Below, piece by piece: positions 36,146 through 55,271 of a DNA stretch of 55,271 nt. The number at the start of each line of letters is the position of its first letter. Position 1 is the stretch's first letter. Below the pieces are notes generated by a model that worked only from the letters and a program-made list of their open reading frames with translations, did not search any database and was not told where the DNA came from. Source of the DNA: a virus (taxonomy: Duplodnaviria; Caudoviricetes); the IMG/VR virus record IMGVR_UViG_3300046804_000671, positions 1-55,271 of that record; one strand, given 5' to 3'. The translations under genes were made by a program, and so were the position numbers.

Positions 36146-36153
36146 TAGACAAT

Positions 36154-37904: not shown

Positions 37905-37913
37905 ATCAATCTC

Positions 37914-40224: not shown

Positions 40225-40249
40225 TTCCTAGCGTCAAATCAGTTACAAT
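40221..40249 (+). promoter_or_regulatory. Candidate sigma70 promoter
   Basis: TTGATT-N17-TACAAT ahead of a 390-nt non-coding stretch. Confidence 0.5.
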
Positions 40250-41279: not shown

Positions 41280-41310
41280 ATCATACTTCCCAACTGTTGG
41301 GAGACGCAGA

Positions 41311-41475
41311 ATGAAGCAAAGTGCTGAGGCTATCCAGAAGCGGATTGACTTTCTCAGGAACTCTGGTAGACCAGTACCTCTTATCCTTGAGACTAGGCTA
41401 TTCAGGATTAATTCTGGGAAGAAGCTGAAGCTTCCTTCCTTCTCAAGGAAAGGTTTCGTAAAGGATAAAAGATGA
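41311..41475 (+). CDS. Small basic hypothetical protein
   Basis: 54 aa, GGAG RBS, ATGA-coupled to the next ORF. Confidence 0.45.
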   Translation: MKQSAEAIQKRIDFLRNSGRPVPLILETRLFRINSGKKLKLPSFSRKGFVKDKR

Positions 41476-41654
41476 ACCGTAGAAGCTTGTTCAGGATGAT
41501 CCCTGTTGCTCCGGTCGTTGGCGCATCAGCTATTATGTCAAGCGTCAAGCCGAAGCTTGATGTTAAGCTGCCTCAGGTTGGAGAGATGAACTGGGGTCAG
41601 ACTATCAACAAGGCCATCAGGGATATTCAGGAAGAGATCAACAAGAGGGGATGA
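41472..41654 (+). CDS. Hypothetical protein with twin-arginine-like N-terminus
   Basis: MNRRSLF + hydrophobic stretch. Confidence 0.5.
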   Translation: MNRRSLFRMIPVAPVVGASAIMSSVKPKLDVKLPQVGEMNWGQTINKAIRDIQEEINKRG

Positions 41655-43366: not shown

Positions 43367-43482
43367 GCTAACGCCTATGGTGTCTAGGGTCCTGTATGTA
43401 CACAGGAACCTAGGCCCCGGCTTCACCCATTTCGATAGCATGGATTGTCCATGCAGTCCAGTTCCTATTGATAGAGATTACA

Positions 43483-43938
43483 ATGAAGAAGAATACAATC
43501 GATACCGGAACACCGGAGGGAATGAAGCACAAGAAGATGGTGGCGGTCCCCGCTCCGGGGCGGCCGGGGAAGATTCATCTGAGGGTGGTGGATCAGATTG
43601 AACTGGACCGCATGCTTGACAGGGGACAGATCACGCAGGACGAGTGGTCCTCTGGCGAGCAAGTCTACCGACTGCTCTACAAGGCAGGCATGCTCGGCGC
43701 TTCCAAGTCAACGCTCAATGTGTCGGGGAATAGTGGTGATCCTCAGCATATATCAGAGAAGAAGTCAGACTCTATTCTCATGCTGAGCCAGTTGATTGAT
43801 CACCTTGATATGTCTTGTGGGCGTGCTGCCCGCCGTGTCTTCATCGACATGCTGATGCTTGACCGGCCCGTCAAGACTGACGAACAGGTCAAGCAAGTGA
43901 AGCGTGCGTTGTCTGAGGTTGATAACGCATTCGGTTAA
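43483..43938 (+). CDS. Putative late transcription regulator (DUF6456-like)
   Basis: LDRMLDRGQITQDE motif; last gene of the replication operon. Role is inferred. Confidence 0.45.
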   Translation: MKKNTIDTGTPEGMKHKKMVAVPAPGRPGKIHLRVVDQIELDRMLDRGQITQDEWSSGEQVYRLLYKAGMLGASKSTLNVSGNSGDPQHISEKKSDSILMLSQLIDHLDMSCGRAARRVFIDMLMLDRPVKTDEQVKQVKRALSEVDNAFG

Positions 43939-44177
43939 AGCTTATCCATCACCAGCCTAGTGATCAGCCTGCGTGCCTGATCCCTATATCCAGCACCAAG
44001 TTCCTCATCATTTGCCATGTCAGTGATGAGGTTCCTTGCTTCAAGGAAAAACTCGTAATCTTTGTACGATATAACCTTTTGTGTAAGTTGTGCCTGATTC
44101 GCTGAGGTTAATGTGAATGTTCCTGAATTAGGAACGCTTATAGTATTTTGATACGGCTTGACGGCAGTCATCTTCAT
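43935..44177 (-). CDS. Hypothetical protein
   Basis: AAGGA RBS; convergent overlap with the previous gene. Confidence 0.5.
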   Translation of the reverse strand: MKMTAVKPYQNTISVPNSGTFTLTSANQAQLTQKVISYKDYEFFLEARNLITDMANDEELGAGYRDQARRLITRLVMDKL

Positions 44178-44710
44178 GCTTCCTTTCTTTGGTTGTTGTG
44201 GTCCCATTCCCATGACCATACTCCCTTCTTCGCGGCATCAACCAATCGCCTAATCTTTTCGTTCTCCATGTACTTGGCGAACGCTTCGCTTTCAGCTTCG
44301 TATCTGCTGAATGACTTCAGCATGTACATACATGACGTATGATCCTTGTTTAGCAAGGAAGCAATATCGGGAAACGACCTCTTGTTAAGAGTTCGCTCAA
44401 GATATGTGAAGATGGAACGCGCAACAGCCATGCTGTGGTACCTCTTGTGGGGCACGCGGAGATCATCAAGATTAAATCCGCTAGCCTCATTGATTGACTT
44501 TAGTATGTGCAAAGTAAGCTTGTAGTCTGCCCTGTCTTTCCATCTAGACATGAAGCTATCAGGATGGTGAGCAGTTCCCACAAACTTCTTGAGATTGATC
44601 ATCTTAGACATATCAATCTCATTGATTGACATCTTCTTATAAGAAGATCCAATATAATCTTGCTGGGTCTTTGAAAGCTTTCTAACAAGCACAGGATCAA
44701 GTGGCTCCAT
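44174..44710 (-). CDS. Protein with DnaA C-terminal (domain IV) HTH
   Basis: ARSIFTYL...SFPDIASLLNKDHTSCMY matches the DnaA-IV RQIAMYL...SLPEIG..RDHTTV pattern. Confidence 0.75.
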   Translation of the reverse strand: MEPLDPVLVRKLSKTQQDYIGSSYKKMSINEIDMSKMINLKKFVGTAHHPDSFMSRWKDRADYKLTLHILKSINEASGFNLDDLRVPHKRYHSMAVARSIFTYLERTLNKRSFPDIASLLNKDHTSCMYMLKSFSRYEAESEAFAKYMENEKIRRLVDAAKKGVWSWEWDHNNQRKEA

Positions 44711-45155
44711 CGTGCTTCTCCTTCCACTTCTTTGCTCTATTGAGCGCATGTTTTGTTACGGGCCAAGACGGCCTATCTAAGTAGGCCAGTGCAATGTGCC
44801 TCAAATAATGAAGCTCTGCAAACTTATCGTTTCCTCTTTTCCTCCAGTAATCATACCTCATGTATGACCTTTTTATTTTTACCTCAATCCCAAAAGGAAA
44901 GTCCCTCCAATATGGAACGTGATCAGAAAGCCCCATCCCGTTTTCCATACTATCCAAATACAAAACATCTATATTGTATTTTTTCATTATGATGTCTGTT
45001 TCTTCCTTGGCCGCTGCCATATACTTATTAAGTCTCTTCCTTATTCCATCATGATATTCAGAAGATCGGTATAAATATACTCTGTATATATTGTACCAAT
45101 TAAAAGATTTTTTTACAGAATCAAGAGAGTCTATCTCTTTGTAAGCGTCTTTCAT
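44697..45155 (-). CDS. Hypothetical protein (AT-rich)
   Basis: GGAG RBS; 152 aa. Confidence 0.6.
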   Translation of the reverse strand: MKDAYKEIDSLDSVKKSFNWYNIYRVYLYRSSEYHDGIRKRLNKYMAAAKEETDIIMKKYNIDVLYLDSMENGMGLSDHVPYWRDFPFGIEVKIKRSYMRYDYWRKRGNDKFAELHYLRHIALAYLDRPSWPVTKHALNRAKKWKEKHDGAT

Positions 45156-45176
45156 AATTGATCTCCTGTATAACAG

Positions 45177-45644
45177 TTATACATTCCACCAGTCAGGTTG
45201 TCCGTTCTTCCAAGTAGCAAATCCAGTCTTTTCCCCAAGGTAGTAGTTCCTATACGCAACAACTGCATCTTTGTTCTTGTATTCATCAGGCATAGCCTGA
45301 GCAAACGGGGTTAGTCCAACATCAGGCATACGCTTTACAGCATGCCATGCTGCATTGATACCAATATCCACGCTCTTGTGTACCTTGCCATACCGTGCAG
45401 TATACTCCCTTCCAAGGGCAACAAGCAACGCAGCAAGCCATCGTGTGTTGGCGGCAGACTGCCTGACCCATACAGAACATGGGTGGTTGATGTGCGTTGT
45501 CTTGTAACCAACACGATCATTAAGCACGCCGTTTGCTGTAGTAGATAATAGCTGAGCGTACTCAAGACACATCTTAACAACATGCTTGTCGCAGTGGTAC
45601 GCGGCAGCCTTGTTGATGTCTTTGTCTAGAACAAAGATGTTCAT
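45177..45644 (-). CDS. Pyrimidine-dimer DNA glycosylase/endonuclease V-like protein
   Basis: MNIFVLD...HCDKHVVKM..EYAQLL, HINHPCSVW, FAQAMPDEY, AYRNYY. Confidence 0.75.
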   Translation of the reverse strand: MNIFVLDKDINKAAAYHCDKHVVKMCLEYAQLLSTTANGVLNDRVGYKTTHINHPCSVWVRQSAANTRWLAALLVALGREYTARYGKVHKSVDIGINAAWHAVKRMPDVGLTPFAQAMPDEYKNKDAVVAYRNYYLGEKTGFATWKNGQPDWWNV

Positions 45645-45653
45645 ATATACCTC

Positions 45654-46109
45654 CTACAACTTCTTCTTGAAGAACACAGCAGCCTTCTCACTAGTCTCAA
45701 CAGTGGGCCACTCATCCTTTCCACAAACACTGTATCCACAGGCGATCAGGTTATTCATGGAATAGTGGTTGTTAACGTGTGCTGTAGTAACCGAGATAAG
45801 AACACCTCGATCCTTCATGTTGCGTTCGCGGAAGCGGATCATGTGTCGCTGGAACTCCATGCCCCTCCACTTGGGAAGAACGCCAGCCCTGCACAGTTCA
45901 CCAACCTGACCGTTGACGTTGCGCCATCCAGAATATCCTACATACTTACCATCGTATTCCAATAGATACCAGTTTGCACCTTCGAATTCGAACGGTTCGT
46001 ATTCAGGAAAGCAGATGGCATCCATCCACCTTAACCAGCGTCCACCATCGGAATCATGTTCATGTACTGATTCCATGTATTTGAGATCGCCGTCCTCATT
46101 AATGCTCAT
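45654..46109 (-). CDS. GNAT acetyltransferase
   Basis: RAGVLPKWRG acetyl-CoA loop; NHYSMNNLIACGY. Confidence 0.75.
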   Translation of the reverse strand: MSINEDGDLKYMESVHEHDSDGGRWLRWMDAICFPEYEPFEFEGANWYLLEYDGKYVGYSGWRNVNGQVGELCRAGVLPKWRGMEFQRHMIRFRERNMKDRGVLISVTTAHVNNHYSMNNLIACGYSVCGKDEWPTVETSEKAAVFFKKKL

Positions 46110-46743
46110 GATAGTTCACTCCTTTGATCTTGTTGTTCCAGCACTGGTCACAGCCAAGGCATTTGTTGCCTTGGTCTGGAGCCTTACATTGCTTAAGCCA
46201 CTTACTCTTTGCGTCTACAGTGGAGAACGGAAGACGGTGTGTCTTCTTGAATGTAGCACCAACCATTGGATTAGATTGGCGTACAGTAAGATTGAATGAG
46301 AAGTCTCCGTGCTTCTTCATCCATGCTGCAACGATGCCTGCCTCCTTGGTAGGAAGCCAGTGACGTACAGTCGGTGTTGCCTTTGCTATGTTGTTGATCT
46401 TGGTCAGGTGTTCTTCAGACTGAATGTCTCCGCTGTCAAACCACCTGAACCTGTTCTCTCCTTCCTTGCTCCTCGCCCATAGATCAGTAAGTACAACAAT
46501 GAAAGCATCCTCAAACCTTGGATCATCCATTGCCTTGAGCCTGCGATCAAGAGCCTTGCGTACAACAGGCATGTTGTAGAAACCCTTGAGTGCATAACAG
46601 TTATGGCAGACAGTTCCGTGAGTCTGAGCCAACACAGATCCCGTCTTGCATGCGGTGGCGGGAATTGAGTAGGACCACCAAGGCATCTTGGATGGCTTAC
46701 TCAATCCGCCAATAAGTTCCCATGCTTCCTTGAATTGCATCAC
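46099..46743 (-). CDS. Gp88-family (radical-SAM-like) protein
   Basis: GGLSKPSKMP, C..VCHNCYA, FRWFDSGD, HWLPT, C..CLGCDQCW. Confidence 0.75.
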   Translation of the reverse strand: MMQFKEAWELIGGLSKPSKMPWWSYSIPATACKTGSVLAQTHGTVCHNCYALKGFYNMPVVRKALDRRLKAMDDPRFEDAFIVVLTDLWARSKEGENRFRWFDSGDIQSEEHLTKINNIAKATPTVRHWLPTKEAGIVAAWMKKHGDFSFNLTVRQSNPMVGATFKKTHRLPFSTVDAKSKWLKQCKAPDQGNKCLGCDQCWNNKIKGVNYHEH

Positions 46744-47441
46744 GAACCTCCAATCCTAGACGCAATCTTGCGACCGATAGCACGCCGCATACCGTTAGCA
46801 CACAGCCTGTAGTCTGTATGGTAATAGGTGATGCCGCTGTTGCTATCCTTCATGATGTAGCAGTCCATACTCTTGTACTTCTTCGACCCATTGTTATAGG
46901 AGTAGGTGAAGTAACAAGCGGACCAGCACTTGTATGTGTCGTGATGGTGCGTCCTAGACCAAACAAGAACCTTGTTGGTACCGAGAGAGCCAATCTCCTT
47001 GATGTGATTGCTGTACATCATTGGCACAACAAACTTCTTCAGTCCTCCAGTTTCAGTATAGAAAACACCACACCCATCAGCCGTGGTGTTTACCTCTACA
47101 AGCCAAGGCGTGGAGTTGCTGATCTTGCTGTTGAGTTCTGAAAGCATAGACCTCTTGGCTTGGTTCTTCTTTGCGTCCATCTTTGATACAGACTTGCTTT
47201 CGTTAAAGATTTCACGAAGTTGAAGGACGGCATCCAAGGCGCCACACCTGTGTCCGATATACGAAGTGGTTGTTTTGCCAAGTTCATAGAACAACTTGTT
47301 CATGATGTTGGACTTGTCGGTGATGCCACGGTCACGGGCAAGCTTGAACATGCCAGACGCAGCGGCTGCAATCTTGCGTGCCTCAAGCTTGAACTTCTCT
47401 TTGAAGTACTTGTCGTCTGTCTTAACCCTATTATCGGACAT
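46740..47441 (-). CDS. Hypothetical protein
   Basis: GAGG RBS; coupled to its neighbours. Confidence 0.6.
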   Translation of the reverse strand: MSDNRVKTDDKYFKEKFKLEARKIAAAASGMFKLARDRGITDKSNIMNKLFYELGKTTTSYIGHRCGALDAVLQLREIFNESKSVSKMDAKKNQAKRSMLSELNSKISNSTPWLVEVNTTADGCGVFYTETGGLKKFVVPMMYSNHIKEIGSLGTNKVLVWSRTHHHDTYKCWSACYFTYSYNNGSKKYKSMDCYIMKDSNSGITYYHTDYRLCANGMRRAIGRKIASRIGGS

Positions 47442-48576
47442 TGATAACCTCACCAAACGGAGCGGTGTTGATGTCGGAAGTGGACACCCAGATCACGGGG
47501 TAATGAGGCGGCGCGTCAGGAAACGAACCGTACATATCCGTGAAGTATACGAGAGCCTGAGGAGATACACCGTTATCCTCAGTCCACTTGAATGCGGGGC
47601 GGAAGTCAGTGCCTCCACCGCCACGGGGACGGGCGACGATCTCATCGCCAGCTTCGAATGTATCGACACCGGAAACTTCCGAGTCGATATACAGGATGTG
47701 AACCTTCTCCGGAATAACCTCCTCTGCAATTGCTGCAAGCTCTGAGAAAAACGTGGTCAGTTCCTTCTTGCCGATGGACCCGGACGTATCGATACCGACA
47801 ACGATCTCACCGGCACCTTCACGCAGGATGGACGGGGCGTAGATACCCTCACCCTCAAGGCGACGATTGAACCGACGCCAAGTGTAGTCAACGGGATACA
47901 TACCAGTGACAACGGCACGCAGCTTCTCACGCCAATCAACCTGAGGCTTGAGCAGCTTGTCGATGAAACGCTCCATGTTGGCAGGCATCTTGCCCTGTTT
48001 CTTGGCGACAGCTACCGCATTGGAAATGGTAGACTTCATGTCAGCCTCCATGACTTTCATCTCGGACTCTGACAGTTCCTGTCCGTTCTTGTCGGTCGGC
48101 TTCATTACCTGACCCCACGGACCCTTGCCTTCCTCGCCGTCACCACTGCCACCACCCTGCGGAGGAGGAGGGGGAGGGTTCTTCATAAGATCATCGTAGA
48201 TATCTTCGAAGGTCCAGTTGGCGTACTTGGGATCGTTACACCCACCAGCAGGAAGGGTATAGCGTTCGCAGATAGTGGGATTGATAGCGTAATCCATAGC
48301 AATGTTGGCGGGCAGATGCTCACGCTTACCGAGGCGCAGCATATGGAGCAACGCAACATGCATGGCTTCATGCACAATGACACCAAGCAACTCGTCGTCA
48401 GTGAGTCCTTGGACAAACTGACTATTGTAATACAAGTTGTTGCCATCAGTTGCCATCGTATCGGTATGCGCTTCGACAACCTCCCAGCGCATACAGATTA
48501 CGCCGAAGAACGGATCGTCAAGGACAAGCTTGATGCGTGCCTTGGCAATACGATCATGAACACTGAGCGTAGACAT
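47431..48576 (-). CDS. Metallopeptidase-like + VWA domain protein (DUF2201 type)
   Basis: TMATDG, HEAMH, MIDAS DTSGS, GGGGTDF, YFTD. Confidence 0.88.
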   Translation of the reverse strand: MSTLSVHDRIAKARIKLVLDDPFFGVICMRWEVVEAHTDTMATDGNNLYYNSQFVQGLTDDELLGVIVHEAMHVALLHMLRLGKREHLPANIAMDYAINPTICERYTLPAGGCNDPKYANWTFEDIYDDLMKNPPPPPPQGGGSGDGEEGKGPWGQVMKPTDKNGQELSESEMKVMEADMKSTISNAVAVAKKQGKMPANMERFIDKLLKPQVDWREKLRAVVTGMYPVDYTWRRFNRRLEGEGIYAPSILREGAGEIVVGIDTSGSIGKKELTTFFSELAAIAEEVIPEKVHILYIDSEVSGVDTFEAGDEIVARPRGGGGTDFRPAFKWTEDNGVSPQALVYFTDMYGSFPDAPPHYPVIWVSTSDINTAPFGEVINVR

Positions 48577-48982
48577 TGATGCCTCCTAACCTATAGCAAT
48601 GAAAAAGAAAGCTATCAACACAAAGAAGATAGCACCGATGATTAGTCCATCCATATCATTCTCCCTTTTTAAGAAGGGACTTCACGAACCTCCTTACTCT
48701 CTTGCGGAACCCGCGCTTGATCTTCTTGCGAGTTCCAGACTTGAACCTGAAATACTTACGCCATCCAGAGAGGGCGTCATACTCGCCGCCCCCTCTCATA
48801 GGTATCTCACCTTTCATTGGCGACTCCTGTATAGTTGTCAGCTTGTACCGTTTCACTGCCCATGACACGAACATCTAGCAATAACAGAACAGTACCTTGT
48901 ATGGCCTGCGGTGTCTGCATGTATCCAAGCAGAGTTTCCTCACCATCGCCCGTTGCTGACGCGGCTGCGGGAGGAGGCATTG

Positions 48983-49840
48983 CTAGATGTAGGCGGACAC
49001 CTTGTTCAGAATATCACGCGCAGTCTGAGCGGCGGCGATGCGGCTGCTCTGGTTCTCGCGCAGATCATCAGATGTAATGGTGGCAAGGTCATGCTTGATC
49101 TGCATGGCAATGCCGTCAATGTCAGGATTGTTGGTGATGTTAAGCTTGGGCAGAATGTCAGCGAGGTCACTGATGTTGCTCATCATGGACTCACGGATAC
49201 CCTTGCCATCGTTGGCTTCCACCTCCTTGAGACGCTTGAGCATGTGTTCCATACGCATGGACACACGCTGAAACACATCACGCACAGCGTTGTCCTGTGC
49301 CTCCGAAAGATTCTGTTCGATCTCCTGCTTGGTGGATTGGAACTCCGACTCAGACAGGGAGACACGGAAGTCATTGGAGTCAGGCAGATTGAACACACGC
49401 ACATTGAAGGCATGCTTGCGGCGGATGCTTTCCGCGCTCGGGTAATCAGACTCCTTGAACAGACCATTGAGATCGAGGCGAGCCTGCTTGACCAGAGCAT
49501 CATACTCCACAAGCAACTTCTCCACAGCCTGATTGAACTGGCTGCGGTACTCAGACATACGCTGCACATATTCCAGATAGATATCCACGGGGATGATGCG
49601 GATACCATCGTTAAGCCAAGGCAGGGTGACGCTCATGGTATAGTTACGAGCGTTGCCTGCGATGCTGGTGATATCCTTAAGAGAGATAGGGTTCACCAGA
49701 ATCTTGTTGAAGCGACCGGCGCGAGAGGCGTCGGTGCCGTGGTTCTGTGCAACTTCAGCGGTCGCATCCTTGTCGTACTTGCGCCCCGACCAAGCAGAGA
49801 TCGAGAGAGCAACGAGCATAGCCTTTTCACTGATATTCAT
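48983..49840 (-). CDS. DUF3150-like helical protein
   Basis: AMLVALSISAWSGRK, TLPW, DYPS; sits between the MoxR and VWA genes. Confidence 0.6.
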   Translation of the reverse strand: MNISEKAMLVALSISAWSGRKYDKDATAEVAQNHGTDASRAGRFNKILVNPISLKDITSIAGNARNYTMSVTLPWLNDGIRIIPVDIYLEYVQRMSEYRSQFNQAVEKLLVEYDALVKQARLDLNGLFKESDYPSAESIRRKHAFNVRVFNLPDSNDFRVSLSESEFQSTKQEIEQNLSEAQDNAVRDVFQRVSMRMEHMLKRLKEVEANDGKGIRESMMSNISDLADILPKLNITNNPDIDGIAMQIKHDLATITSDDLRENQSSRIAAAQTARDILNKVSAYI

Positions 49841-49849
49841 GACAACCTC

Positions 49850-50023
49850 CTAGATGTTACGAAACAGACCGGCCCAATACATAAGGGCGAAAGACAAGAC
49901 AGTCGAGAAGAACGACACATAGAAATTGTATCGTATCGCAGGTTTGGGTGTGTCATGCAAGATGATTACAGACACAAGGTTGACGGTCCATAGGGCGATG
50001 ATCGCCCACTCACCGTAGTTCAT
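49850..50023 (-). CDS. Small membrane protein (57 aa)
   Basis: GGAGG RBS; two hydrophobic segments. Confidence 0.55.
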   Translation of the reverse strand: MNYGEWAIIALWTVNLVSVIILHDTPKPAIRYNFYVSFFSTVLSFALMYWAGLFRNI

Positions 50024-50032
50024 GATGCCTCC

Positions 50033-51049
50033 TTACAGGATCACGTTAGAGAAGGACACGGCCAGATCGATACCAGCCTTGGTCTTCATAAGGTTGGGAT
50101 TACGAGCCTGCATTTCCTTGAGGCAGGAGACGCAGTACTCCTTCTTCTTGAACTCGTCGCTGGAGATACGATTGAGGATGCGACGAACCACATCCATGTT
50201 GCGTGGAGTGGCGTGGTTAGCGACCGCACCCATCAACGCATAGATGGTAGCAGGATCGTTGGCAATACGGACACCCTCAGGATTGTCGAAGATATCCTTG
50301 ATAAGAGGCAGACCAGACGCGATCTTCATGAAACCGTAGAACTCGTTGGTCACACCCTCGCCGTTCAGACCAGTGACCAATGCGCGCTCAGCGTACTGAG
50401 GCAGACCAATGGACAGAACGTCGGACACCTTCTCCCAAGTACGCGGAGAGGCGTTGGCGTACTGAGACGCATCGAACATAGACAGATGATCGGGACGCCA
50501 CTCAAGGTATGCGGTGATCATTGGATTGATATCCCTGCTACCGCAATACGCACGGAAGTCATCACGGTCAGCGACCATCTCGACATGGGCGAGACGATTA
50601 CGAAGATGCGTAGGCATCTCAAATGTACCGGCCTTGTGTTGACGCATGTTGCCAGACAGAACGATGGCAGTGCTATCGGGAAGCTTATGCTCACCAAGCA
50701 CACGATCATGAACGATACGAGACGCAATGTTCTGCATCATCATGACAGCCTGAGGCACCTCGTCCAGATGGAGAAGGGTAGGACGATCCGACTCCTCGAT
50801 CTTACGGATGATATCGCTACGAGACAGACGCATCTCTATACCGTCACGGTAACAATGACCGACAACATCAGGCGCCTCACGCTCAGCGAGGATGACCTGA
50901 ATATAGTTGTAACCTTCCTCCTCTGCGGACTGACCGGCGACCGCAGTCTTGCCGATACCCGGAGCGCCCCAGACCATGGGCACGATGGATTTGCGGCGCA
51001 TGGCGGCCTTGGTAATGTCCTTAATTTCGGTCGGCTTAAGCTTAAGCAT
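50033..51049 (-). CDS. MoxR-like AAA+ ATPase
   Basis: Walker A GAPGIGKT, Walker B LHLDE, SGN, LRNR, SPRTW. Confidence 0.88.
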   Translation of the reverse strand: MLKLKPTEIKDITKAAMRRKSIVPMVWGAPGIGKTAVAGQSAEEEGYNYIQVILAEREAPDVVGHCYRDGIEMRLSRSDIIRKIEESDRPTLLHLDEVPQAVMMMQNIASRIVHDRVLGEHKLPDSTAIVLSGNMRQHKAGTFEMPTHLRNRLAHVEMVADRDDFRAYCGSRDINPMITAYLEWRPDHLSMFDASQYANASPRTWEKVSDVLSIGLPQYAERALVTGLNGEGVTNEFYGFMKIASGLPLIKDIFDNPEGVRIANDPATIYALMGAVANHATPRNMDVVRRILNRISSDEFKKKEYCVSCLKEMQARNPNLMKTKAGIDLAVSFSNVIL

Positions 51050-51050
51050 G

Positions 51051-51548
51051 TCATTTGTCCTTGAAGTTGATGATGACAGGATCGTTGAGGTTTACTTCCA
51101 TCTCGTCAAGAGACTTGTAGTGGAAGTACTGCTCGATGCTACTCTGGTATACGTAGAACTCCTCTGGTTTGCATTCTAGGAATTGCTCTGGGCTGTTGTA
51201 CTTGACGCTGTACCTGTTGCCCTTCTCTCCGCTGATATACGGATCACCTACGTGTCCTTCGTTCTGAATCCTAACCATGGCTAGAGCGCCAAGGATTTTA
51301 CTGTAAACATCAACATCTTTGATGAAGTTACCAATTATGTAACCCCTCCGTATAACTAGATACGGCATCTTGTTGTTGTGCCTCATTGACCTTGCGATCT
51401 GAGCGGGAACGCCTCCTCCCTTTATGATGCCTGTCTTTGCGTAGTTATAAAGCTTTTTCTTCTGCGAAGGACCGAACGAACTTACATCGACCTCCGCGTA
51501 TAGGTTCTTGAGGTGACTCATTACAGAGTCGGAGATATTGTATGACAT
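51051..51548 (-). CDS. Hypothetical protein
   Basis: ORF packed in the early operon. Confidence 0.55.
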   Translation of the reverse strand: MSYNISDSVMSHLKNLYAEVDVSSFGPSQKKKLYNYAKTGIIKGGGVPAQIARSMRHNNKMPYLVIRRGYIIGNFIKDVDVYSKILGALAMVRIQNEGHVGDPYISGEKGNRYSVKYNSPEQFLECKPEEFYVYQSSIEQYFHYKSLDEMEVNLNDPVIINFKDK

Positions 51549-51778
51549 TACAGGCACCTCTCGATGTTGATGAGGCGGCGTGCTGCCCTGCGGTACACAC
51601 CGCCGATGAACCCACCCATGAGCGACAGTTCCTTCAGATCATCAATGATCCAGCGGAGAGCATCGCGCTCGCCCCGCTTGGCTGCCTGCCACACTCGCGG
51701 ATGTACTACACCACGGAAACGCATACGCTCAGAGTAACGTATGTCATGCTTGAAACTGCGGATGCTCTTGATCTGCAC
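51548..51778 (-). CDS. Hypothetical basic protein
   Basis: GTG start; coupled to the next ORF. Confidence 0.5.
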   Translation of the reverse strand: MQIKSIRSFKHDIRYSERMRFRGVVHPRVWQAAKRGERDALRWIIDDLKELSLMGGFIGGVYRRAARRLINIERCL

Positions 51779-51856
51779 CTCTCAACTCCTCTTCCCAACG
51801 GTTACGAACTACAACCAAAGGCACCATGTCTCTGGTCAACTTGCTAAGCATATACA

Positions 51857-51884
51857 ATTATAGCACCTCCATTCTTGGTGTCTA
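51857..51884 (-). promoter_or_regulatory. Candidate early sigma70 promoter
   Basis: TAGACA-N16-TATAAT with extended -10 (TGCTATAAT); TCCAGG just upstream and a degenerate operator-like palindrome downstream. Confidence 0.6.
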
Positions 51885-51908
51885 TAGTTCCAGGAAAATT
51901 TATCTTTA

Positions 51909-52094
51909 TCATCTCAGCTTTTGCACCACCCTTTCCGCTGTTAGTTCGTTGACCATAGTAGAAAGCCTGTCGTGGATGTTCGCCCAGTAGGCTGGTCCTT
52001 CAGGCGTTTCTTTCCAGACGAAGGCAGTCATCAGGTTGTCTCTGGTTTGAGCCAGAAGCTGAAAGCTCGCGTTTTCTCTCCACTTGTACATCAT
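51909..52094 (-). CDS. Hypothetical protein
   Basis: AFVWKETPEGPAYW motif; GGAG RBS. Confidence 0.6.
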   Translation of the reverse strand: MMYKWRENASFQLLAQTRDNLMTAFVWKETPEGPAYWANIHDRLSTMVNELTAERVVQKLR

Positions 52095-52221
52095 TTACTC
52101 CATAAACAGAGTGATCATGAAGATCAGCATCAGGAACGTGTATCCCATGCAGAGATACAGTACCAGAGTCAGGCATTCCTTGATGATATCCATATATTCC
52201 TCCTAGGTTTATGCCGTAAAC

Positions 52222-52458
52222 TCAGACGATGCGGACCTTGATGCCCTTCTGGATGCGGATAGTCACATCCGAGATGACACGCTCACGCTTGATGTGCGGA
52301 CGCTTGGACTTGATGCCGGAATCCATGTCGAGCGCGGATTCCATGACCATGCGGGTGATGCCCGCCATCGAGATTCCCGCCTTGAACGCCTCCTTACGCA
52401 GGCGATTGAACATGCGGGGAGGGAGGGTGTACCCAACGTAGCGATTGCTGTTCTTCAT
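52222..52458 (-). CDS. Putative ribbon-helix-helix DNA-binding protein
   Basis: YVGYTLPPRMFNRLRKEAFKAGISMAGITRMVMESAL fits the RHH pattern; AGGAG RBS. Confidence 0.55.
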   Translation of the reverse strand: MKNSNRYVGYTLPPRMFNRLRKEAFKAGISMAGITRMVMESALDMDSGIKSKRPHIKRERVISDVTIRIQKGIKVRIV

Positions 52459-52468
52459 GACATATCTC

Positions 52469-52669
52469 CTAGTAGTCGTAGTCGATTGGTTCGTCGGTGT
52501 AGTAGTTGTCGTCTGTGAAAATATCGGTACGAAACCTGGATTTCTTAGCCTCCTCGCACTTGTTGCAGACATATCCAATGGGGATGCCGCGAGCATCGTA
52601 TGCCAGCCATGACACCCCATCGCTCTTTCTATGAGGGAACCTTTTGTCTCCGTTGCACTTCCCAACCAT
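52469..52669 (-). CDS. Hypothetical protein
   Basis: YDARGIPIGYVCNKC; acidic C-terminus. Confidence 0.5.
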   Translation of the reverse strand: MVGKCNGDKRFPHRKSDGVSWLAYDARGIPIGYVCNKCEEAKKSRFRTDIFTDDNYYTDEPIDYDY

Positions 52670-52675
52670 TGGGAA

Positions 52676-53017
52676 CTACTCCTTTACAGGGGTTGGTTGA
52701 ATGTACGGGGTGAACGAGGTCCACTTCTTGACTCGCCACCCATGATCCTTGACCCAAAACGGAGCGCCGCCGCCGCTTCGCTTGGATTGACAGAAGGAGA
52801 ACATTGGACTGCCTCCCTTGCTGCCCTTGACGCCGAGGAACTCACGTAGAGCCTTGGCGCAGGGATCACCATACATTTCAGGGGTTTGCAGCAGAGACAC
52901 CACCATCGCGGCACCTCCCCTGCGATATGCGTGCAGGACCGTCAGCAGCGTCTTGTCATAGGCTTTGCCCATGTCAAGGCTGTAGATGTACCTGATCGCG
53001 TTAGGAACATCGCTCAT
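52676..53017 (-). CDS. Hypothetical protein
   Basis: ORF in the early operon; start uncertain. Confidence 0.45.
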   Translation of the reverse strand: MSDVPNAIRYIYSLDMGKAYDKTLLTVLHAYRRGGAAMVVSLLQTPEMYGDPCAKALREFLGVKGSKGGSPMFSFCQSKRSGGGAPFWVKDHGWRVKKWTSFTPYIQPTPVKE

Positions 53018-53236
53018 TTTAGCAATCCCAATAACAGGCGAAGTCACAGTCCACGAAGAAGAACAGGCTGATGTTGTGATCCACGTTCAGATTGGCAGCA
53101 TCATTCAGCCTGCGCCACACACTGGTATAAACCATCATGTCTCACCGCCTTCCAACTTGTGCTTCCCAACCGTTGGGAAGCTTCTCAACCGGAGCCTCGC
53201 TGCATTTGCGAGTTGCATTTCGTCCGATTGTTCTGT

Positions 53237-53265
53237 ATTATCTCATGTTTTATGGTCTTTGTATA
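53237..53265 (-). promoter_or_regulatory. Candidate early promoter divergent from terS
   Basis: TATACA-N17-GATAAT with TG extension; flanked by the inverted repeat ATGTCCAGG-N6-CCTGGACAT. Confidence 0.4.
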
Positions 53266-53343
53266 TATGTCCAGGAAAAAACCTGGACATTTTGACCATA
53301 TATTTTTTTTAACCTAGCGAACGCCTCGCTTTCAAGGTGCCAC

Positions 53344-53796
53344 ATGACCAAACACAAGATGACTATCAAGCAGGAAGACTTTGCAAGATTGGTAGGATAC
53401 GAGGGAGTATCCCAGATTGATGCCTACAGACAGGCATATAACCCAAAGACAAAGTCTCCCACTGCACTAGCCTCAATGGCATATAGATTGTCTATCCATC
53501 CCCTAGTGTCTCAGGCAATCACCAAGTACAGGGATCAGAGAGAACAGGACAAGAAGATTGATGCCGGTACGATTAGAGAACTCCTTCTGAATACCTTGAT
53601 TAGTAAGGTCAAGGAAGCCAAGACGGAATCCAATCAATTAAGGGCAGTGGAATTGCTGGGTAAGACGGAGGATATTGGATTGTTCAAGGAGAGAATTGAA
53701 ACAACGACAGTCAAGTCAAGCGATGATTTGGAAAAGGAATTGAGGGAAAAGTTACACAATCTATTTGGGAAGCCCAAGATTGTTGCAAGTAATTGA
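53344..53796 (+). CDS. terS: Terminase small subunit
   Basis: TIKQEDFAR...DAYRQAY...AYRL..HPLV..AI...RAVELLGK HTH pattern typical of TerS. Confidence 0.75.
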   Translation: MTKHKMTIKQEDFARLVGYEGVSQIDAYRQAYNPKTKSPTALASMAYRLSIHPLVSQAITKYRDQREQDKKIDAGTIRELLLNTLISKVKEAKTESNQLRAVELLGKTEDIGLFKERIETTTVKSSDDLEKELREKLHNLFGKPKIVASN

Positions 53797-54015
53797 TTTG
53801 CCTAGAGATTAGGCAGATCGAGATTATTAGGATTTGTTTTTTATATCTGGTTTGATTGTGGTTGGTTAATGCCGGGAGATTGGGGGATTTTGGTAGGGGG
53901 ATTAGGATTTTGCAGGCAAACGATTTGATTTTTTTATAAAAACCACATCTCCAGGCCTTCCCAACCGTTGGGAAACTGCTATTGAGAATCATTCTCATTC
54001 CTGGACCTAGGCAAC

Positions 54016-54048
54016 AAAAAGCCCCCTAGACCTAAGCCTAGGGGGCTT
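54016..54048 (-). terminator. Rho-independent terminator of the 54053..54676 gene
   Basis: Minus strand: GCCCCCTAG-loop-CTAGGGGGC-TTTTT. Confidence 0.8.
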
Positions 54049-54052
54049 CCTG

Positions 54053-54676
54053 TTACTTCTTAAAGGTGATCACAACCGTGCCATGCTGGGCGCTGTAGAC
54101 CGCCTCGGCCTTCGCCTCGTGGGCCTGCCACAGCAGCAACTCGACAAGCTGGCTGTGACCGCCGGTTGCGGCGGGCGTTTCGGCCAGCGTGGCAATGTGG
54201 GGCCGGTTGTAGTTCATGACCTTGTCGAGCGCCGTTCCCGGCCCCTGTCCGCCCTTGCCCTTCGCCTTGGGCTTGTCAGACTTCTTTTCGGCGGCGTTCA
54301 CTGACTTAATCGATACGCTCGCGAGCGCCTCGCCCTTGCCTTCAATGTCAATCGCCTTGCGGGCGTTCGTGACATAGTTGGAAAGATACTTCTTTGCGCC
54401 CTTCTCATCCGTGCCGCGCTTCTCGGCGACCGCGTCCAGCAACGGGCGCATGGCAAGCTCGCGCTCGCGCCCCTCAACCGTGAGCTTGAAGATCGCCATG
54501 ATGGCGGCCGTAAGCCGCTCGCCGATCTTCGTATAGACGTCGAACGCGGTCGAGTGTTCCAAGAACACTGCGATGGCCGTATCCGACGCCGCCTTGATAG
54601 CAGCGGCACGGTCGACTGGCTTGGCATCCGCAACGGGGATGACCGGAGCAACCTTAGCCTTGATAACCTTTGCCAT
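54053..54676 (-). CDS. Stand-alone early protein (Ala/Lys-rich)
   Basis: AGGAG RBS, own promoter and terminator, GC-rich codons. Confidence 0.7.
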   Translation of the reverse strand: MAKVIKAKVAPVIPVADAKPVDRAAAIKAASDTAIAVFLEHSTAFDVYTKIGERLTAAIMAIFKLTVEGRERELAMRPLLDAVAEKRGTDEKGAKKYLSNYVTNARKAIDIEGKGEALASVSIKSVNAAEKKSDKPKAKGKGGQGPGTALDKVMNYNRPHIATLAETPAATGGHSQLVELLLWQAHEAKAEAVYSAQHGTVVITFKK

Positions 54677-54794
54677 TTGACACTCCTAATGGCTCCCATG
54701 CAAAAAAAACCCGTTCCACGCGCGGGGAGCCAGCGCGGGCAGATGGGGTTTCAGACGATGCATAGAGCGGTCGGCGAATGGAACCGACACGCAC

Positions 54795-54822
54795 ACAGTA
54801 CAGGTACCAGCGGCACGGTCAA
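54795..54822 (-). promoter_or_regulatory. Candidate sigma70 promoter
   Basis: TTGACC-N16-TACTGT on the minus strand. Confidence 0.5.
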
Positions 54823-54868
54823 GGGGGGCTGTGGATTTTTTCCTTCCCAACGGTTGGGAAAAAGTTAA

Positions 54869-55098
54869 TGCGAATCATTCGCAACCTGGAGTCCAGGATG
54901 CAATTGAGAATCATTCTCACTTCCCAACGGTTGGGAAACTGCAATTGATAATCATTCGCAACTCGGCCGTTGATGCAAATGAGAATCATTCGCAACCCGT
55001 TGTCAGGTGCAATTGATAATCATTCGCATATAGATCCAAGATGCAATTGATAATCATTATCACCTGGAGATCCAGGATACGATTAAGAATCATTTGCA
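54869..55098. repeat. Periodic array of 7 Fur-box-like 7-1-7 palindromes
   Basis: TG(A/C)(G/T)AATCATT(C/A)(G/T)CA at 54869, 54905, 54946, 54980, 55014, 55048 and a degenerate copy at 55084; another copy at 53983. Confidence 0.85.
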
Positions 55099-55139
55099 AC
55101 TAGCTGCGGCTGGCTGGTCGTGGGCGCGCTCAGACCGGC

Positions 55140-55271
55140 AGGGGGGGGCGACCCCACCCACCGGCACCCCCCTGTGCGGCAGCGGGTCCCCCGGCGGCAA
55201 GCCACGCCAACTAATCCGCACACCCGGTACCCCCACATATAAAAATTAATTCCCCCAAATAAAAATTATCC
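55140..55271. other. G/C-run-rich non-coding segment, candidate packaging/terminus region
   Basis: GGGGGGG and CCCCCC runs followed by A-tracts, downstream of terS. Role is inferred. Confidence 0.35.

What the first reader, a model, noticed from the sequence alone, without database searches (positions are those of the whole stretch)
51889..55076. CCWGG is nearly absent from the window but concentrated as inverted TCCAGG pairs around terS, early promoters and the putative genome end
Seen: reading by eye I found one CCWGG in the first ~51.8 kb (11061), where tens would be expected by chance. Ten occur in the last 3.4 kb: 51890, 52535, 53271, 53282, 53951, 54000, 54885, 54893, 55063 and 55072. 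All ten are the hexamer TCCAGG/CCTGGA. Most are intergenic and in inverted pairs, e.g. ATGTCCAGG-N6-CCTGGACAT at 53267-53290 and CCTGGAGTCCAGG at 54885-54897. Known: CCWGG is the Dcm/EcoRII/class II DISARM site, and P1 gates packaging through clustered Dam-methylated sites at pac. Inference: the phage avoids a CCWGG-directed host system but keeps these sites for a function. Options are a cytosine-methylation switch for packaging or early transcription (possibly written by its own C5 MTase at 40638..41279), a decoy on the first-injected DNA, or TerS-binding sites.
Basis: partly seen in the sequence, partly recalled or inferred. Interest (0 to 1): 0.88.

Follow-up and report, generated by a model that had tools for sequence, protein, structure and literature searches.

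The report
CCWGG-purged phage keeps regulatory TCCAGG cluster
A freshwater phage has removed nearly every copy of the restriction-enzyme site CCWGG from its genome, and the ten copies left sit in strain-specific gene-control DNA beside the packaging gene, where close relatives use other sequences, so being CCWGG looks incidental, not a switch.

Summary
CCWGG occurs 11 times against about 117-134 expected. That is 1 against 124 in 1-51800 and 10 against 8-11 in the last 3.4 kb. All ten are TCCAGG and 9 of 10 are intergenic. The tail is not enriched; it is only not purged. It still lacks the 14 six-base palindromes missing from the whole window (0 against 8-13 expected).

The purge is common in the clade. 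55 of 81 related loci and 3 of 5 fetched relatives' records have no CCWGG.

The cluster is not conserved. The nearest relative, L003, has no CCWGG across the syntenic terS-terL region and carries other palindromes there. A second relative, from another study, mutates or replaces six of the sites (two replaced, two more skipped with good support). At the terS dyad a compensatory G>A/C>T change keeps the dyad and destroys both sites.

Three sites lie exactly 4 nt upstream of promoter -35 hexamers. Six flank Fur-box-like repeats.

The window end is a contig break before terL, not a genome end. The small methyltransferase has a C5-MTase fold but shows no link to CCWGG statistics.

Best reading: inherited restriction avoidance, plus a recent strain-specific regulatory motif that happens to contain CCWGG.

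The parts
1..51800 (.). Genome body purged of CCWGG (1 site against 124 expected). It also lacks 14 six-base palindromes and GAGCAC.
11061..11065 (.). The only CCWGG outside the tail. Its context is GCCAGGG, not TCCAGG, and it lies inside ORF 10501-11265.
51857..51894 (-). Leftward promoter-like module P_L2: CCTGGA (51894-51889), 4 nt, TAGACA, 16 nt, TATAAT.
   Evidence: (11 of 12 hexamer matches)
51792..51808 (.). P1-like palindrome (2 mismatches) between P_L2 and the Shine-Dalgarno sequence of ORF 51548-51778.
52469..52669 (-). Strain-specific 66-aa Cys-rich ORF, absent from L003. It holds the only coding TCCAGG (52535-52540). A P1 variant (52659-52675) overlaps its start codon.
53163..53179 (.). 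Perfect P1 palindrome TTCCCAACCGTTGGGAA in the leader downstream of P_L1.
53237..53275 (-). Leftward promoter-like module P_L1: CCTGGA (53275-53270), 4 nt, TATACA, 17 nt, GATAAT.
53267..53290 (.). Dyad ATGTCCAGG-A6-CCTGGACAT. I read it as the back-to-back upstream elements of the divergent P_L1 and P_terS promoters. In the run-X4 relative, 53274 G>A together with 53283 C>T keeps the dyad and removes both CCWGG sites.
53282..53318 (+). Rightward terS promoter-like module: CCTGGA, 4 nt, TTGACC, then CCTAGC 16 nt after TTGAC.
   Evidence: The TTGAC-16-CCTANA consensus is quoted in a passage of PMC2724300.
53344..53796 (+). Small terminase subunit (150 aa).
   Evidence: Pfam Terminase_2 E 6.5e-5, 24 bits, below the 26.1 cut-off. 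phrog_51 1.5e-8. 79% identical to the L003 homologue, with the divergence concentrated in the first 60 residues.
53950..54005 (.). Composite element TCCAGG - P1 - Fur-box-like R2a - TCCTGGA, downstream of terS. It is replaced by 80 other letters in the run-X4 relative and by three other palindromes in L003.
54019..54048 (.). Terminator-like hairpin between the convergent terS and the 207-aa gene. It is conserved in L003.
54053..54676 (-). 207-aa protein of no known family. L003 has a different protein at this position. Only 5 homologues were found, counting its own record.
54843..55099 (.). Control array, in order: P1, R2b, palindrome CCTGGAGTCCAGG (54885-54897), R2c, P1, R2d-R2g at a 34-bp period, palindrome CCTGGAGATCCAGG (55063-55076), R2h.
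55126..55245 (.). Conserved GC-rich element, 88% identical to L003 2357-2475. In L003 it lies upstream of a tRNA, an sRNA and terL.
40638..41279 (+). 213-aa minimal methyltransferase with a C5-cytosine MTase fold. Specificity is unknown, and a P1 variant follows its stop codon.

Best explanation
Two separate things are superimposed.

(1) The phage belongs to a clade of aquatic podovirus-like phages, related through terL to the HTVC023P-type pelagiphages. Many members of that clade have purged CCWGG completely, together with many six-base palindromes. This is classical restriction-site avoidance. It was inherited from an ancestor with no sites, and it is gained and lost repeatedly on the terL tree.

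(2) The ten surviving sites are copies of one hexamer, TCCAGG. This is a cis-regulatory half-site belonging to this strain's own control cassettes around terS.
- Three copies sit exactly 4 nt upstream of the -35 hexamer of three sigma-70-like promoters. Two of those promoters are divergent and back to back, which creates the 'inverted pair' upstream of terS.
- Six copies abut Fur-box-like operator repeats. Four form two palindromic spacers that bracket a 34-bp-phased array in the control region between the 207-aa gene and the late (terL) operon. Two bracket a P1-R2 unit downstream of terS.
- One copy lies in a strain-specific small ORF.

I infer that a phage-encoded DNA-binding protein reads the motif. 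Candidates are the co-varying 207-aa protein, the 66-aa Cys-rich protein and the DnaA-domain-IV-like protein.

Being CCWGG is incidental, because relatives use TCCAAG/CTTGGA or unrelated palindromes at the same places. Avoidance only pays when it is nearly complete, so the cluster must post-date the purge. It most likely came in by cassette exchange or duplication, in a lineage whose present host does not cut CCWGG, or else the sites are shielded.

Shown: the counts, the spread in the clade, the non-conservation, the compensatory change and the promoter geometry. Inferred: that the sites bind protein, which protein it is, and why they are tolerated.
For: Purge:
- 1 against 124 expected in 1-51800.
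- 0 against 783 expected in 55 of the 81 related loci, 480,745 bp in all.
- Fetched relatives' records: G001, G002 and G003 have 0 against 81, 116 and 36; G004 has 29 against 108; G005 has 31 against 57.
- The more distant HTVC023P and 023Pt_psg01 are not depleted, at 65 against 74 and 81 against 83 in their first 50 kb.
- On an 83-row TerL tree the zero state needs 13 changes, at least 9 of them forced by starred branches. The shuffled mean is 23.5, and 0 of 500 shuffles are as low.
- The enriched one-step neighbours are CCTGA (1.59) and ACTGG (1.52). The deamination products are not enriched, at 1.09-1.23.

Cluster:
- All ten sites are T-flanked and 9 of 10 are intergenic.
- The regex CCTGGA-N4-T[TA][GT]AC finds only the three promoter sites in 55 kb. 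Two of these coincide with the promoter-like sites.
- A 20-nt repeat links 51879-51898 with 53260-53279 (family D6).
- TCCAGG abuts R2 cores at 54000, 54885, 54892, 55063 and 55071.

Non-conservation:
- All 9 sites in the span comparable with L003 lie in the 1628 bp without homology, and none lies in the 1155 homologous bp (P about 0.008).
- L003 has no CCWGG, P1 or R2, and has other palindromes at the same positions.
- The run-X4 contig is about 92% identical over 53212-53932. It carries 53274 G>A together with 53283 C>T, which form a base pair of the dyad. It also replaces 53932-54008 with 80 other letters.
- Co-occurring variants in runs X1 and X2 keep the R2 boxes but have other spacers (loose ends at 54883, 54978 and 55065).
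- The tail still avoids the 14 zero-count palindromes, at 0 against 8.0-13.3 expected. It is therefore not simply unselected DNA.
Against: - No binding protein is identified. The 207-aa protein has no family or fold match (model pLDDT only 65.9).
- The half-sites occur in three different geometries: N1-2 head to head, N6 tail to tail, and N44. One dimeric regulator cannot read all of them.
- Promoter-like hits as such are not above chance in this region, at 3 found against 3.6 in shuffles. No transcription start is mapped.
- The array spacers vary among co-occurring strains, so the two palindromic spacers may be unconstrained.
- With about 1841 one-step neighbours and only one regained site, at 11061, selection against CCWGG elsewhere looks current or only just relaxed. 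That sits awkwardly beside ten tolerated sites unless they are shielded or very recent.
- Only two relatives could be compared. Two of the run-X4 joints have short sides (22-23 letters), which the tool flags as unreliable.
- The host and its restriction systems are unknown.
Confidence: 0.5

Rival explanations
1. No function. The ten sites are neutral passengers of imported or duplicated cassette DNA in a lineage that recently escaped CCWGG restriction. The TCCAGG uniformity then reflects common descent by duplication and dyad homogenisation, not recognition by a protein.
For: - Site density in the tail equals the composition expectation, at 10 against 8.4-11.
- All comparable sites lie in segments without homology to L003.
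- Array spacers differ among co-occurring strains.
- No relative keeps the sites.
- The two spacer palindromes and the D6 repeat look like duplicates.
Against: - The 4-nt distance to the -35 hexamer is identical at three promoters.
- In the run-X4 relative a two-sided compensatory change preserves the dyad.
- 9 of 10 sites are intergenic (P about 0.001).
- At least 4-5 independent occurrences all carry the T flank.
Confidence: 0.2
2. Packaging site. The array at 54843-55099, and perhaps the 53950-54005 element, is the pac region. TerS would bind the phased repeats, with TCCAGG forming part of what it recognises.
For: - The array lies between terS and terL.
- It holds seven to eight phased repeats at a 34-bp period.
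- TerS of the window and of L003 are identical at 82 of the last 90 residues and diverge most in the N-terminal 60, which is the usual DNA-binding part by general knowledge of this family. The repeats are wholly replaced between the two phages.
Against: - Three of the ten sites belong to promoter modules 1.6-3.0 kb from the array.
- The array also sits at the head of a divergent control region.
- No end information exists. Only assembled contigs were available, and no pile-up of molecule ends was reported (table 6).
- The run-X4 relative has a 92%-identical terS but lacks the CCWGG sites.
Confidence: 0.12
3. Replication origin. The phased repeats are iterons. TCCAGG would be a variant DnaA-box-like site read by the phage's DnaA-domain-IV-like protein (44174-44749).
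For: - The protein matches Bac_DnaA_C at 1.6e-9, above the curated cut-off, and DnaA DNA-binding domains in the PDB (3pvp, 2.5e-4).
- DnaA-type recognition is monomeric and tolerates any orientation, which fits the mixed geometries.
- TCCAGG shares the TCCA core of the DnaA box (a recalled consensus).
- This is the only non-coding tandem array in the window.
- Like the sites, the protein is strain-specific.
Against: - Canonical DnaA boxes are not enriched, at 12 against 11.2 expected.
- The D-H-T recognition residues of DnaA are kept in the alignment, which argues for canonical boxes, possibly the host's.
- The gene lies 10 kb from the array.
- There is no AT-rich unwinding element directly beside the array.
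Confidence: 0.08
4. Cytosine methylation of the clustered CCWGG sites, by a host Dcm-like enzyme or by the phage's own C5-MTase, gates packaging or early transcription as Dam methylation gates P1 pac. Alternatively, the sites act as a decoy.
For: - The motif is paired and clustered close to terS.
- Two palindromes, each holding two sites, bracket a 165-bp array. This resembles the layout of P1 pac (recalled).
- A protein with a C5-MTase fold is encoded.
- The exemption from avoidance is specific to CCWGG.
Against: - Two of two relatives lack the sites. One keeps the terS dyad through a compensatory change that abolishes CCWGG.
- The MTase is absent from 5 of 5 relatives' records, 3 of which have zero CCWGG.
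- Carrying the MTase does not predict CCWGG exclusion. Only 1 of 80 loci has none, and the overall ratio is 0.76.
- A phage able to methylate CCWGG would not need to purge it.
- TCCAGG itself is also purged from the body, with 0 copies in 1-51800.
Confidence: 0.07

Closest known systems
Restriction-site avoidance in phage genomes (Rusinov et al. 2018, PMC6286503, seen as search listing and start of abstract only; the scarcity of EcoRII sites in T7 and T3 is recalled)
   Same: There is a strong, selective deficit of a short (quasi-)palindromic site relative to Markov expectation, accompanied by deficits of many six-base palindromes.
   Different: The deficit here is absolute over hundreds of kilobases of related phages spanning 35-60% GC, and the host is unknown. 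This one genome also carries a local block at normal density made of a single hexamer.
Position-dependent avoidance: the first-injected region decides sensitivity to Type I R-M in Autographiviridae (Martinez-Cazorla et al. 2025, PMC12455610, abstract read)
   Same: Where the motifs lie in the genome matters, not only how many there are. The affected regions are variable and regulatory.
   Different: The polarity is opposite. There, only a small leading region must be motif-free. Here 94% of the genome is motif-free and a small region is not. Injection order is unknown for this phage.
P1 pac site with clustered Dam-methylated hexamers (recalled; not seen in any call)
   Same: Short methylatable motifs are clustered on both sides of a roughly 100-200 bp stretch near the small terminase gene.
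   Different: The sites are not conserved in relatives. No cognate methyltransferase specificity and no cleavage site are known. Three sites belong to promoters elsewhere.
Immunity or specificity cassettes of mosaic phages, such as lambdoid operator-repressor modules (general knowledge)
   Same: Whole sets of operator-like palindromes, together with the neighbouring small genes, are swapped between otherwise similar genomes. W and L003 show this.
   Different: No repressor family is recognisable. Three classes of element (P1, R2, TCCAGG) are interleaved. The region lies between terS and terL.
Fur box (GATAATGATAATCATTATC in a passage of PMC3788343; AATGATAATnATTATCATT in a passage of PMC1698941)
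   Same: Six of the eight R2 cores match TGATAATNATTATCA with 0-3 mismatches, and 55048-55062 matches perfectly. The window has 11 such hits against 2.2 expected.
   Different: The eight phased copies lie in a phage control region, not in front of an iron-uptake gene, and they are absent from the nearest relative. Binding by a host Fur-family protein is untested.

Membership tests
Restriction-site avoidance | Site count far below the shuffle and Markov expectations | tested here: met
   11 against 117 (shuffles) and 134 (Markov) in the window; 1 against 124 in 1-51800
Restriction-site avoidance | The deficit is shared by relatives and follows lineage, not base composition | tested here: met
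   55 of 81 loci have zero sites, over GC 0.35-0.60. 3 of 5 fetched records have zero. The trait is clustered but labile on the TerL tree.
Restriction-site avoidance | The pattern is not explained by 5mC deamination decay | tested here: met
   CTWGG/CCWAG stand at 1.09-1.23, while CCTGA stands at 1.59 and ACTGG at 1.52
Restriction-site avoidance | The host encodes a system that cuts CCWGG | not testable with these tools
   The host is unknown. The record is a freshwater metagenomic virus.
P1-pac-type methylation-gated packaging site | The motif cluster is conserved among related phages | tested here: not met
   L003 has 0 CCWGG in the syntenic 5.9 kb. In the run-X4 relative the sites are mutated, replaced or skipped.
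P1-pac-type methylation-gated packaging site | A cognate methyltransferase acts on the motif | not testable with these tools
   A protein with a C5-MTase fold is present but its specificity is unknown. Carrying it does not correlate with CCWGG statistics.
P1-pac-type methylation-gated packaging site | The packaging cut lies within the cluster | not testable with these tools
   Only assembled contigs were available, so there is no information on molecule ends
Sigma-70-type promoter with an upstream element | -35 and -10 hexamers with a 16-18 nt spacer | tested here: inconclusive
   Two sites come from the scan (11 of 12 and 9 of 12 matches) and one from reading the sequence. The region's total of 3 is not above shuffles, at 3.6. 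The shared CCTGGA-N4 geometry is unique in the window.
Fur-family operator (R2 repeats) | Match to the 7-1-7 dyad consensus | tested here: met
   6 of 8 R2 cores match at 0-3 mismatches. The window has 11 hits against 2.2 expected.
Fur-family operator (R2 repeats) | Bound by host Fur, Mur or Irr | not testable with these tools
   The host is unknown. Supplementary site tables of PMC1698941 could not be opened.
C5 cytosine DNA methyltransferase (PF00145) | Match to the Pfam model | tested here: not met
   No Pfam family at E 0.01. No PF00145 match in the genome at E 1.
C5 cytosine DNA methyltransferase (PF00145) | Catalytic fold and the Pro-Cys and Glu-Asn-x motifs | tested here: met
   The top Foldseek hits are M.HaeIII, DNMT3, DNMT1 and M.HhaI, at probability 1.0 and TM 0.42-0.59. 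FPPC at residues 66-69 and ENP at 111-113 are invariant or nearly so in 36 homologues.
C5 cytosine DNA methyltransferase (PF00145) | A target-recognition domain that defines the sequence methylated | not testable with these tools
   The protein has only 213 residues. Specificity cannot be read from the model.
Iteron-type replication origin | Phased direct repeats of about 20 bp | tested here: met
   34-bp period and 7 copies
Iteron-type replication origin | DnaA boxes or an adjacent initiator gene | tested here: not met
   DnaA boxes number 12 against 11.2 expected and none lies in the array. The DnaA-IV-like gene is 10 kb away.

The most novel reading that the evidence does not exclude
The ten TCCAGG sites are kept because their cytosine-methylation state is read by the phage's control hub. 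The writer would be a host Dcm-type or DISARM-type enzyme, or the phage's own minimal C5-methyltransferase. Methylated or unmethylated CCWGG at the -41 to -46 elements of three promoters, and in the spacers bracketing the Fur-box-like array, would set early transcription or packaging. That would give the phage an epigenetic memory of its last host, while every other CCWGG is purged to escape restriction.
Probability: 0.07. Interest if true: 0.85.

Novelty: new member of a known kind. Interest (0 to 1): 0.42.

Why it matters
- Motif counts alone can mislead predictions of restriction escape. This genome scores as 'CCWGG-avoiding', yet it carries ten clustered sites that any CCWGG enzyme could use.
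- Total exclusion of CCWGG runs through a large group of uncultured aquatic phages, with 0 of about 783 expected sites in 55 loci. This points to a widespread CCWGG-directed pressure in their hosts that could be searched for.
- The terS-terL control region of these phages exchanges whole sets of operators between close relatives. This window offers a compact, testable example: three interleaved element classes, one resembling host Fur boxes, suited to studying how regulatory specificity turns over in phages.

Tried and rejected
- blastn of the tail against 50,697 phage records found no match.
- The 207-aa protein, the 123-aa protein and the DnaA-IV-like protein were used to find relatives in IMG/VR. 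They gave none, or only L003 again.
- Metagenome scans with the alignment of the 207-aa protein, and with a conserved 26-mer, returned nothing new. The P1 palindrome in IMG/VR gave one coding hit in a distant phage.
- The 207-aa protein has no Pfam, PHROG or NCBIfam family. Its AF2 model has pLDDT 65.9, and Foldseek returned nothing at E <= 0.001. It is not significantly similar to the L003 protein at the same position (E 0.27).
- The 66-aa ORF gave only unnamed look-alike clusters.
- CcrM/GANTC idea: GANTC is neither depleted nor clustered, at 171 against 192 in the body and 12 against 15 in the tail. Rejected.
- Irr/ICE box: only 2 of 8 R2 cores match at 3 mismatches. This is weaker than the Fur consensus.
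- A phage nuclease specific for CCWGG: the PHROG label 'HNH endonuclease' on 47431-48576 is really a DUF2201 metallopeptidase plus a VWA domain. No gene's presence separated avoiders from partial avoiders.
- Sigma-54 and DnaA-box readings of the palindromes did not fit on inspection.
- No TCCAGG pairs, R2 cores or promoter modules occur together in the 2.1 Mb of other loci held, so no donor lineage was found.
- Rfam found nothing in the tail above threshold.
As a result, the 62.6-kb contig holding the identical 207-aa and MTase proteins, and the contigs of their 48-88% relatives, could not be read.
- Runs X3, X5 and X6 hold only small shares of the stretch, and I draw nothing about habitat from them.

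Full report
**Observation**

One hundred dinucleotide-preserving shuffles give 117.1 +/- 10.6, and none falls as low as 11. A maximal-order Markov model gives 134.3.

| Region | Observed | Expected |
|---|---|---|
| 1-51800 | 1 | 124.0 (maximal-order) |
| 51801-55271 | 10 | 11.0 (maximal-order) or 8.4 (first-order) |

The tail is therefore not enriched. It simply is not purged.

All ten tail sites read TCCAGG when oriented as CCAGG, and 9 of 10 lie in the 1304 intergenic bases of the 3471-bp tail. The naive probabilities are 7.5e-7 and about 0.001. Because of dyads and duplications, perhaps only four or five occurrences are independent.

CCWGG is by far the most under-represented 5-mer. It is not alone, though. 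Fourteen six-base palindromes and GAGCAC have no copy at all in the window. Those 14 palindromes are also absent from the tail, at 0 against 8.0-13.3 expected. The tail still obeys the genome's general site avoidance, and its exemption is specific to CCWGG.

**What the record is**

- The window is an entire IMG/VR virus record, classed as linear and 91% complete.
- It is held by freshwater metagenome runs.
- No named phage matches the tail at the DNA level.
- One close relative exists in IMG/VR, the 5.9-kb contig L003, whose TerS is 79% identical. L003 is syntenic with the tail. It carries the RHH gene start, the 123-aa gene, terS, a terminator, a leftward gene, a control region and a conserved GC-rich element. 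It then continues into a tRNA, an Rfam Atu_At1-type sRNA, terL and portal.
- The window therefore stops at a contig break just before terL, not at a genome end. A contig of the source sample also runs on beyond base 55271.
- By TerL, the nearest named phages are 023Pt_psg01 and the Pelagibacter phages HTVC027P and HTVC023P, at 52-59% identity. In those phages terS is likewise separated from terL by several kilobases of small genes.

**The purge is common in the clade**

- I examined 81 related loci: L003 plus the best 80 of at least 600 TerL matches. Of these, 55 have no CCWGG. Pooled, that is 0 against 783 expected in 480,745 bp, across GC contents of 0.35-0.60.
- I fetched five relatives' records in full (72-100% complete). 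G001, G002 and G003 have 0 sites against 81, 116 and 36 expected. G004 has 29 against 108 and G005 has 31 against 57.
- The more distant cultured phages show no avoidance. HTVC023P has 65 against 74 and 023Pt_psg01 has 81 against 83, each counted in the first 50 kb.
- On a FastTree TerL tree of 83 rows, the zero state needs 13 changes, at least 9 of them forced by starred branches. The shuffled mean is 23.5, and 0 of 500 shuffles are as low. The trait is inherited but labile, as expected for a pressure that varies between hosts.
- In the window, the one-step neighbours that are enriched are CCTGA (1.59) and ACTGG (1.52). The deamination products CTWGG/CCWAG stand at 1.09-1.23. The deficit is therefore due to selection, not to decay of methylated cytosines.

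**Anatomy of the tail**

Three classes of repeated element are interleaved in its intergenic DNA.

- **P1** is the 17-bp palindrome TTCCCAAC(C/G)GTTGGGAA. It has seven copies at 3 mismatches or fewer, against 0.25 expected. Six are in the tail and one follows the methyltransferase gene.
- **R2** is a roughly 21-bp unit with a 15-bp dyad core. It has eight copies, six of them in tandem at a 34-bp period. Six of the eight cores match the Fur 7-1-7 consensus with 0-3 mismatches. The window has 11 such hits against 2.2 expected, and 55048-55062 is a perfect match. The consensus comes from passages of PMC1698941 and PMC3788343.
- **TCCAGG** is the third class.
  - Three copies sit exactly 4 nt upstream of a -35-like hexamer:
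    - CCTGGA-ACTA-TAGACA-16-TATAAT, leftward, at 51894-51857.
    - CCTGGA-CATA-TATACA-17-GATAAT, leftward, at 53275-53237.
    - CCTGGA-CATT-TTGACC, rightward, upstream of terS. Here CCTAGC lies 16 nt after TTGAC, close to the TTGAC-16-CCTANA consensus quoted for Caulobacter in a passage of PMC2724300.
  - The regex for this geometry finds only these three places in the window.
  - The 'inverted pair' ATGTCCAGG-A6-CCTGGACAT is thus two divergent promoter modules back to back.
  - Both leftward modules are followed by a P1 copy just before the ribosome-binding site of the next ORF.
  - Five further copies directly abut R2 cores, at 54000, 54885, 54892, 55063 and 55071. The sixth, at 53950, abuts P1.
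  - The two palindromes CCTGGAGTCCAGG and CCTGGAGATCCAGG are two of the seven spacers of the R2 array, and they bracket it.
  - The last copy, at 52535, lies inside a 66-aa Cys-rich ORF that L003 lacks.

One caveat applies to the promoters. Promoter-like hits as such are not above shuffles in this region, at 3 against 3.6. The promoter assignments rest on the shared geometry and their position relative to genes, not on mapped starts.

**The cluster is not conserved**

- blastn of the tail against L003 leaves five segments without homology, 1628 bp in all. All 9 comparable sites lie in these segments and none lies in the 1155 homologous bases (P about 0.008).
- L003 has no CCWGG, no P1 and no R2. 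At the same places it carries a different palindrome with the same AAC(C)GTT centre, together with other dyads.
- A contig from a different study (run X4) is about 92% identical over 53212-53932.
  - It carries 53274 G>A together with 53283 C>T. These two bases pair in the dyad, so the change is compensatory. The dyad survives as TCCAAG-A6-CTTGGA and both CCWGG sites are lost.
  - It replaces 53932-54008, the TCCAGG-P1-R2-TCCTGGA unit, with 80 other letters.
  - Further X4 joints skip 51783-52199, 54802-54974 and 55028-55151, which hold five more sites. The first two of these joints have sides of only 22-23 letters, which the tool flags as unreliable.
- Minor variants in the source sample keep the R2 boxes but have other spacers where the palindromes stand (loose ends at 54883, 54978 and 55065).
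- No TCCAGG pair, R2 core or promoter module of this kind occurs together in the other 2.1 Mb of loci held.

**The methyltransferase**

ORF 40638-41279 matches phrog_757 'DNA methyltransferase' at 2.3e-56. It matches no Pfam or NCBIfam model, and PF00145 and PF01555 find nothing in the genome.

It belongs to a very large family of roughly 200-residue phage proteins, with at least 8000 members at E <= 1e-10. An AF2 model has pLDDT 86. That model matches M.HaeIII, DNMT3, DNMT1 and M.HhaI at probability 1.0 and TM 0.42-0.59. Its Pro-Cys and Glu-Asn-Pro motifs are conserved. The label 'C5 MTase' holds at the level of fold.

It is not linked to CCWGG in either direction:
- 0 of 5 relatives' records have a homologue, although 3 of them have no CCWGG at all.
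- 80 unrelated phage loci that carry a homologue have 1885 sites against 2470 expected. Only 1 of the 80 has none.

**Interpretation**

Escaping a cutting enzyme pays only when nearly all sites are gone. The ten clustered sites therefore cannot have coexisted with the selection that removed about 124 others. The ancestor was site-free, as L003 and G001-G003 are, and the cluster is derived.

All sites lie in cassette DNA that differs between close relatives. They are copies of one hexamer in fixed regulatory positions. A relative preserves the dyad while abolishing CCWGG. I therefore read TCCAGG as a strain-specific cis-regulatory half-site, with relatives using TCCAAG or other sequences, and its overlap with CCWGG as incidental.

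Which protein reads it is unknown. The candidates are:
- the 207-aa protein, which is replaced in L003 and has no family or fold match;
- the 66-aa ORF;
- the DnaA-domain-IV-like protein at 44174-44749.

Why the sites are tolerated is also an inference. Either the present host does not cut CCWGG, or the sites are shielded. A tension remains: with about 1841 one-step neighbours in the body, only one site (11061) has reappeared. Relaxation would therefore have to be very recent.

**Rivals and limits**

None is excluded.

The main limits are these:
- Only two relatives could be compared.
- No raw reads were available, so there are no termini and no methylation data.
- The host is unknown.
- Supplementary tables of Mur and Fur sites in PMC1698941 could not be opened. 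They might refine what R2 resembles.

Noticed in passing
window 53983-53997 and 54869-55098: There are eight Fur-box-like 15-bp dyads, six of them in tandem at a 34-bp period. 55048-55062 matches the 7-1-7 Fur consensus perfectly. The window has 11 hits at 3 mismatches or fewer against 2.2 expected. This may be an array of host Fur-family binding sites at the head of the late operon. It is absent from L003.
   Followed up: partly
window 41287, 51792, 52659, 53163, 53958, 54844, 54921: The 17-bp palindrome TTCCCAAC(C/G)GTTGGGAA has 7 copies against 0.25 expected. The copies lie in leaders just before ribosome-binding sites and in the control array. L003 has a different palindrome with the same AAC(C)GTT centre at the corresponding places, while the N-terminus of the adjacent RHH protein is the same in both phages.
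   Followed up: partly
window 55126-55245; L003 2357-2475: A GC-rich element is 88% identical in both phages, upstream of terL. It has two predicted hairpins and 3 two-sided changes among 31 pairs, from only two sequences. It has no Rfam match. Assembly unitigs of the source sample break inside it, at 55135-55180.
   Followed up: partly
L003 2784-2966: A tRNA gene is followed directly by a strong match to the Rhizobiales sRNA family Atu_At1 (98.9 bits against a gathering score of 60). Both lie inside a phage contig just upstream of terL. This may hint at an alphaproteobacterial host.
   Followed up: no
81 related loci (L003-L083); records G001-G005: Many uncultured aquatic relatives exclude CCWGG entirely, at 0 of about 783 expected sites in 55 loci. 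The trait switches on and off at least 9-13 times on the TerL tree.
   Followed up: yes
window 44174-44749 (-): A 191-aa phage protein carries a DnaA C-terminal (domain IV) DNA-binding domain (PF08299, 1.6e-9). The D-H-T recognition residues are kept in the alignment with solved DnaA domains. No relatives were found in IMG/VR. It may take over the host origin, or it may be a phage initiator.
   Followed up: partly
window 47431-51049 (-): A DUF2201 metallopeptidase/VWA protein, a DUF3150 protein and a MoxR-like ATPase lie in a row. The PHROG annotation 'HNH endonuclease' for the first of these is misleading. The set is shared with G001-G005 but not with HTVC023P or 023Pt_psg01.
   Followed up: partly
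whole window: Fourteen six-base palindromes (among them CTGCAG, CAGCTG, GGATCC, CCCGGG, CGATCG and GCCGGC) and the non-palindromic GAGCAC have no copy at all. GAGCAC would be expected 18 times and may mark a Type I, IIG or III target.
   Followed up: partly
window 52164-52249: Assembly unitigs of the source sample break here, around a short piece with 2-3 times the depth. The depth ratio of the flanking parts differs between two runs of the same sample: 22.3 and 33.4 in X1 against 25.4 and 21.1 in X2. This suggests a mosaic junction shared by several co-occurring strains. The record could therefore join parts of different strains.
   Followed up: no
window 40638-41279: The 213-aa methyltransferase belongs to a family of at least 8000 phage proteins of about 200 residues. 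They are 60-65% identical to one another, are covered by no Pfam model and have no visible variable target-recognition domain.
   Followed up: partly
window 31823-36228 (-): Five tRNA genes (Pro-TGG, Gly-TCC, Ser-TGA, Arg-TCT, Thr-TGT) are scattered among the nucleotide-metabolism genes.
   Followed up: no
window 53344-53796 against L003 724-1173: The two TerS proteins are identical at 82 of their last 90 residues but diverge most in the first 60. A recombination or specificity boundary may lie inside terS.
   Followed up: partly
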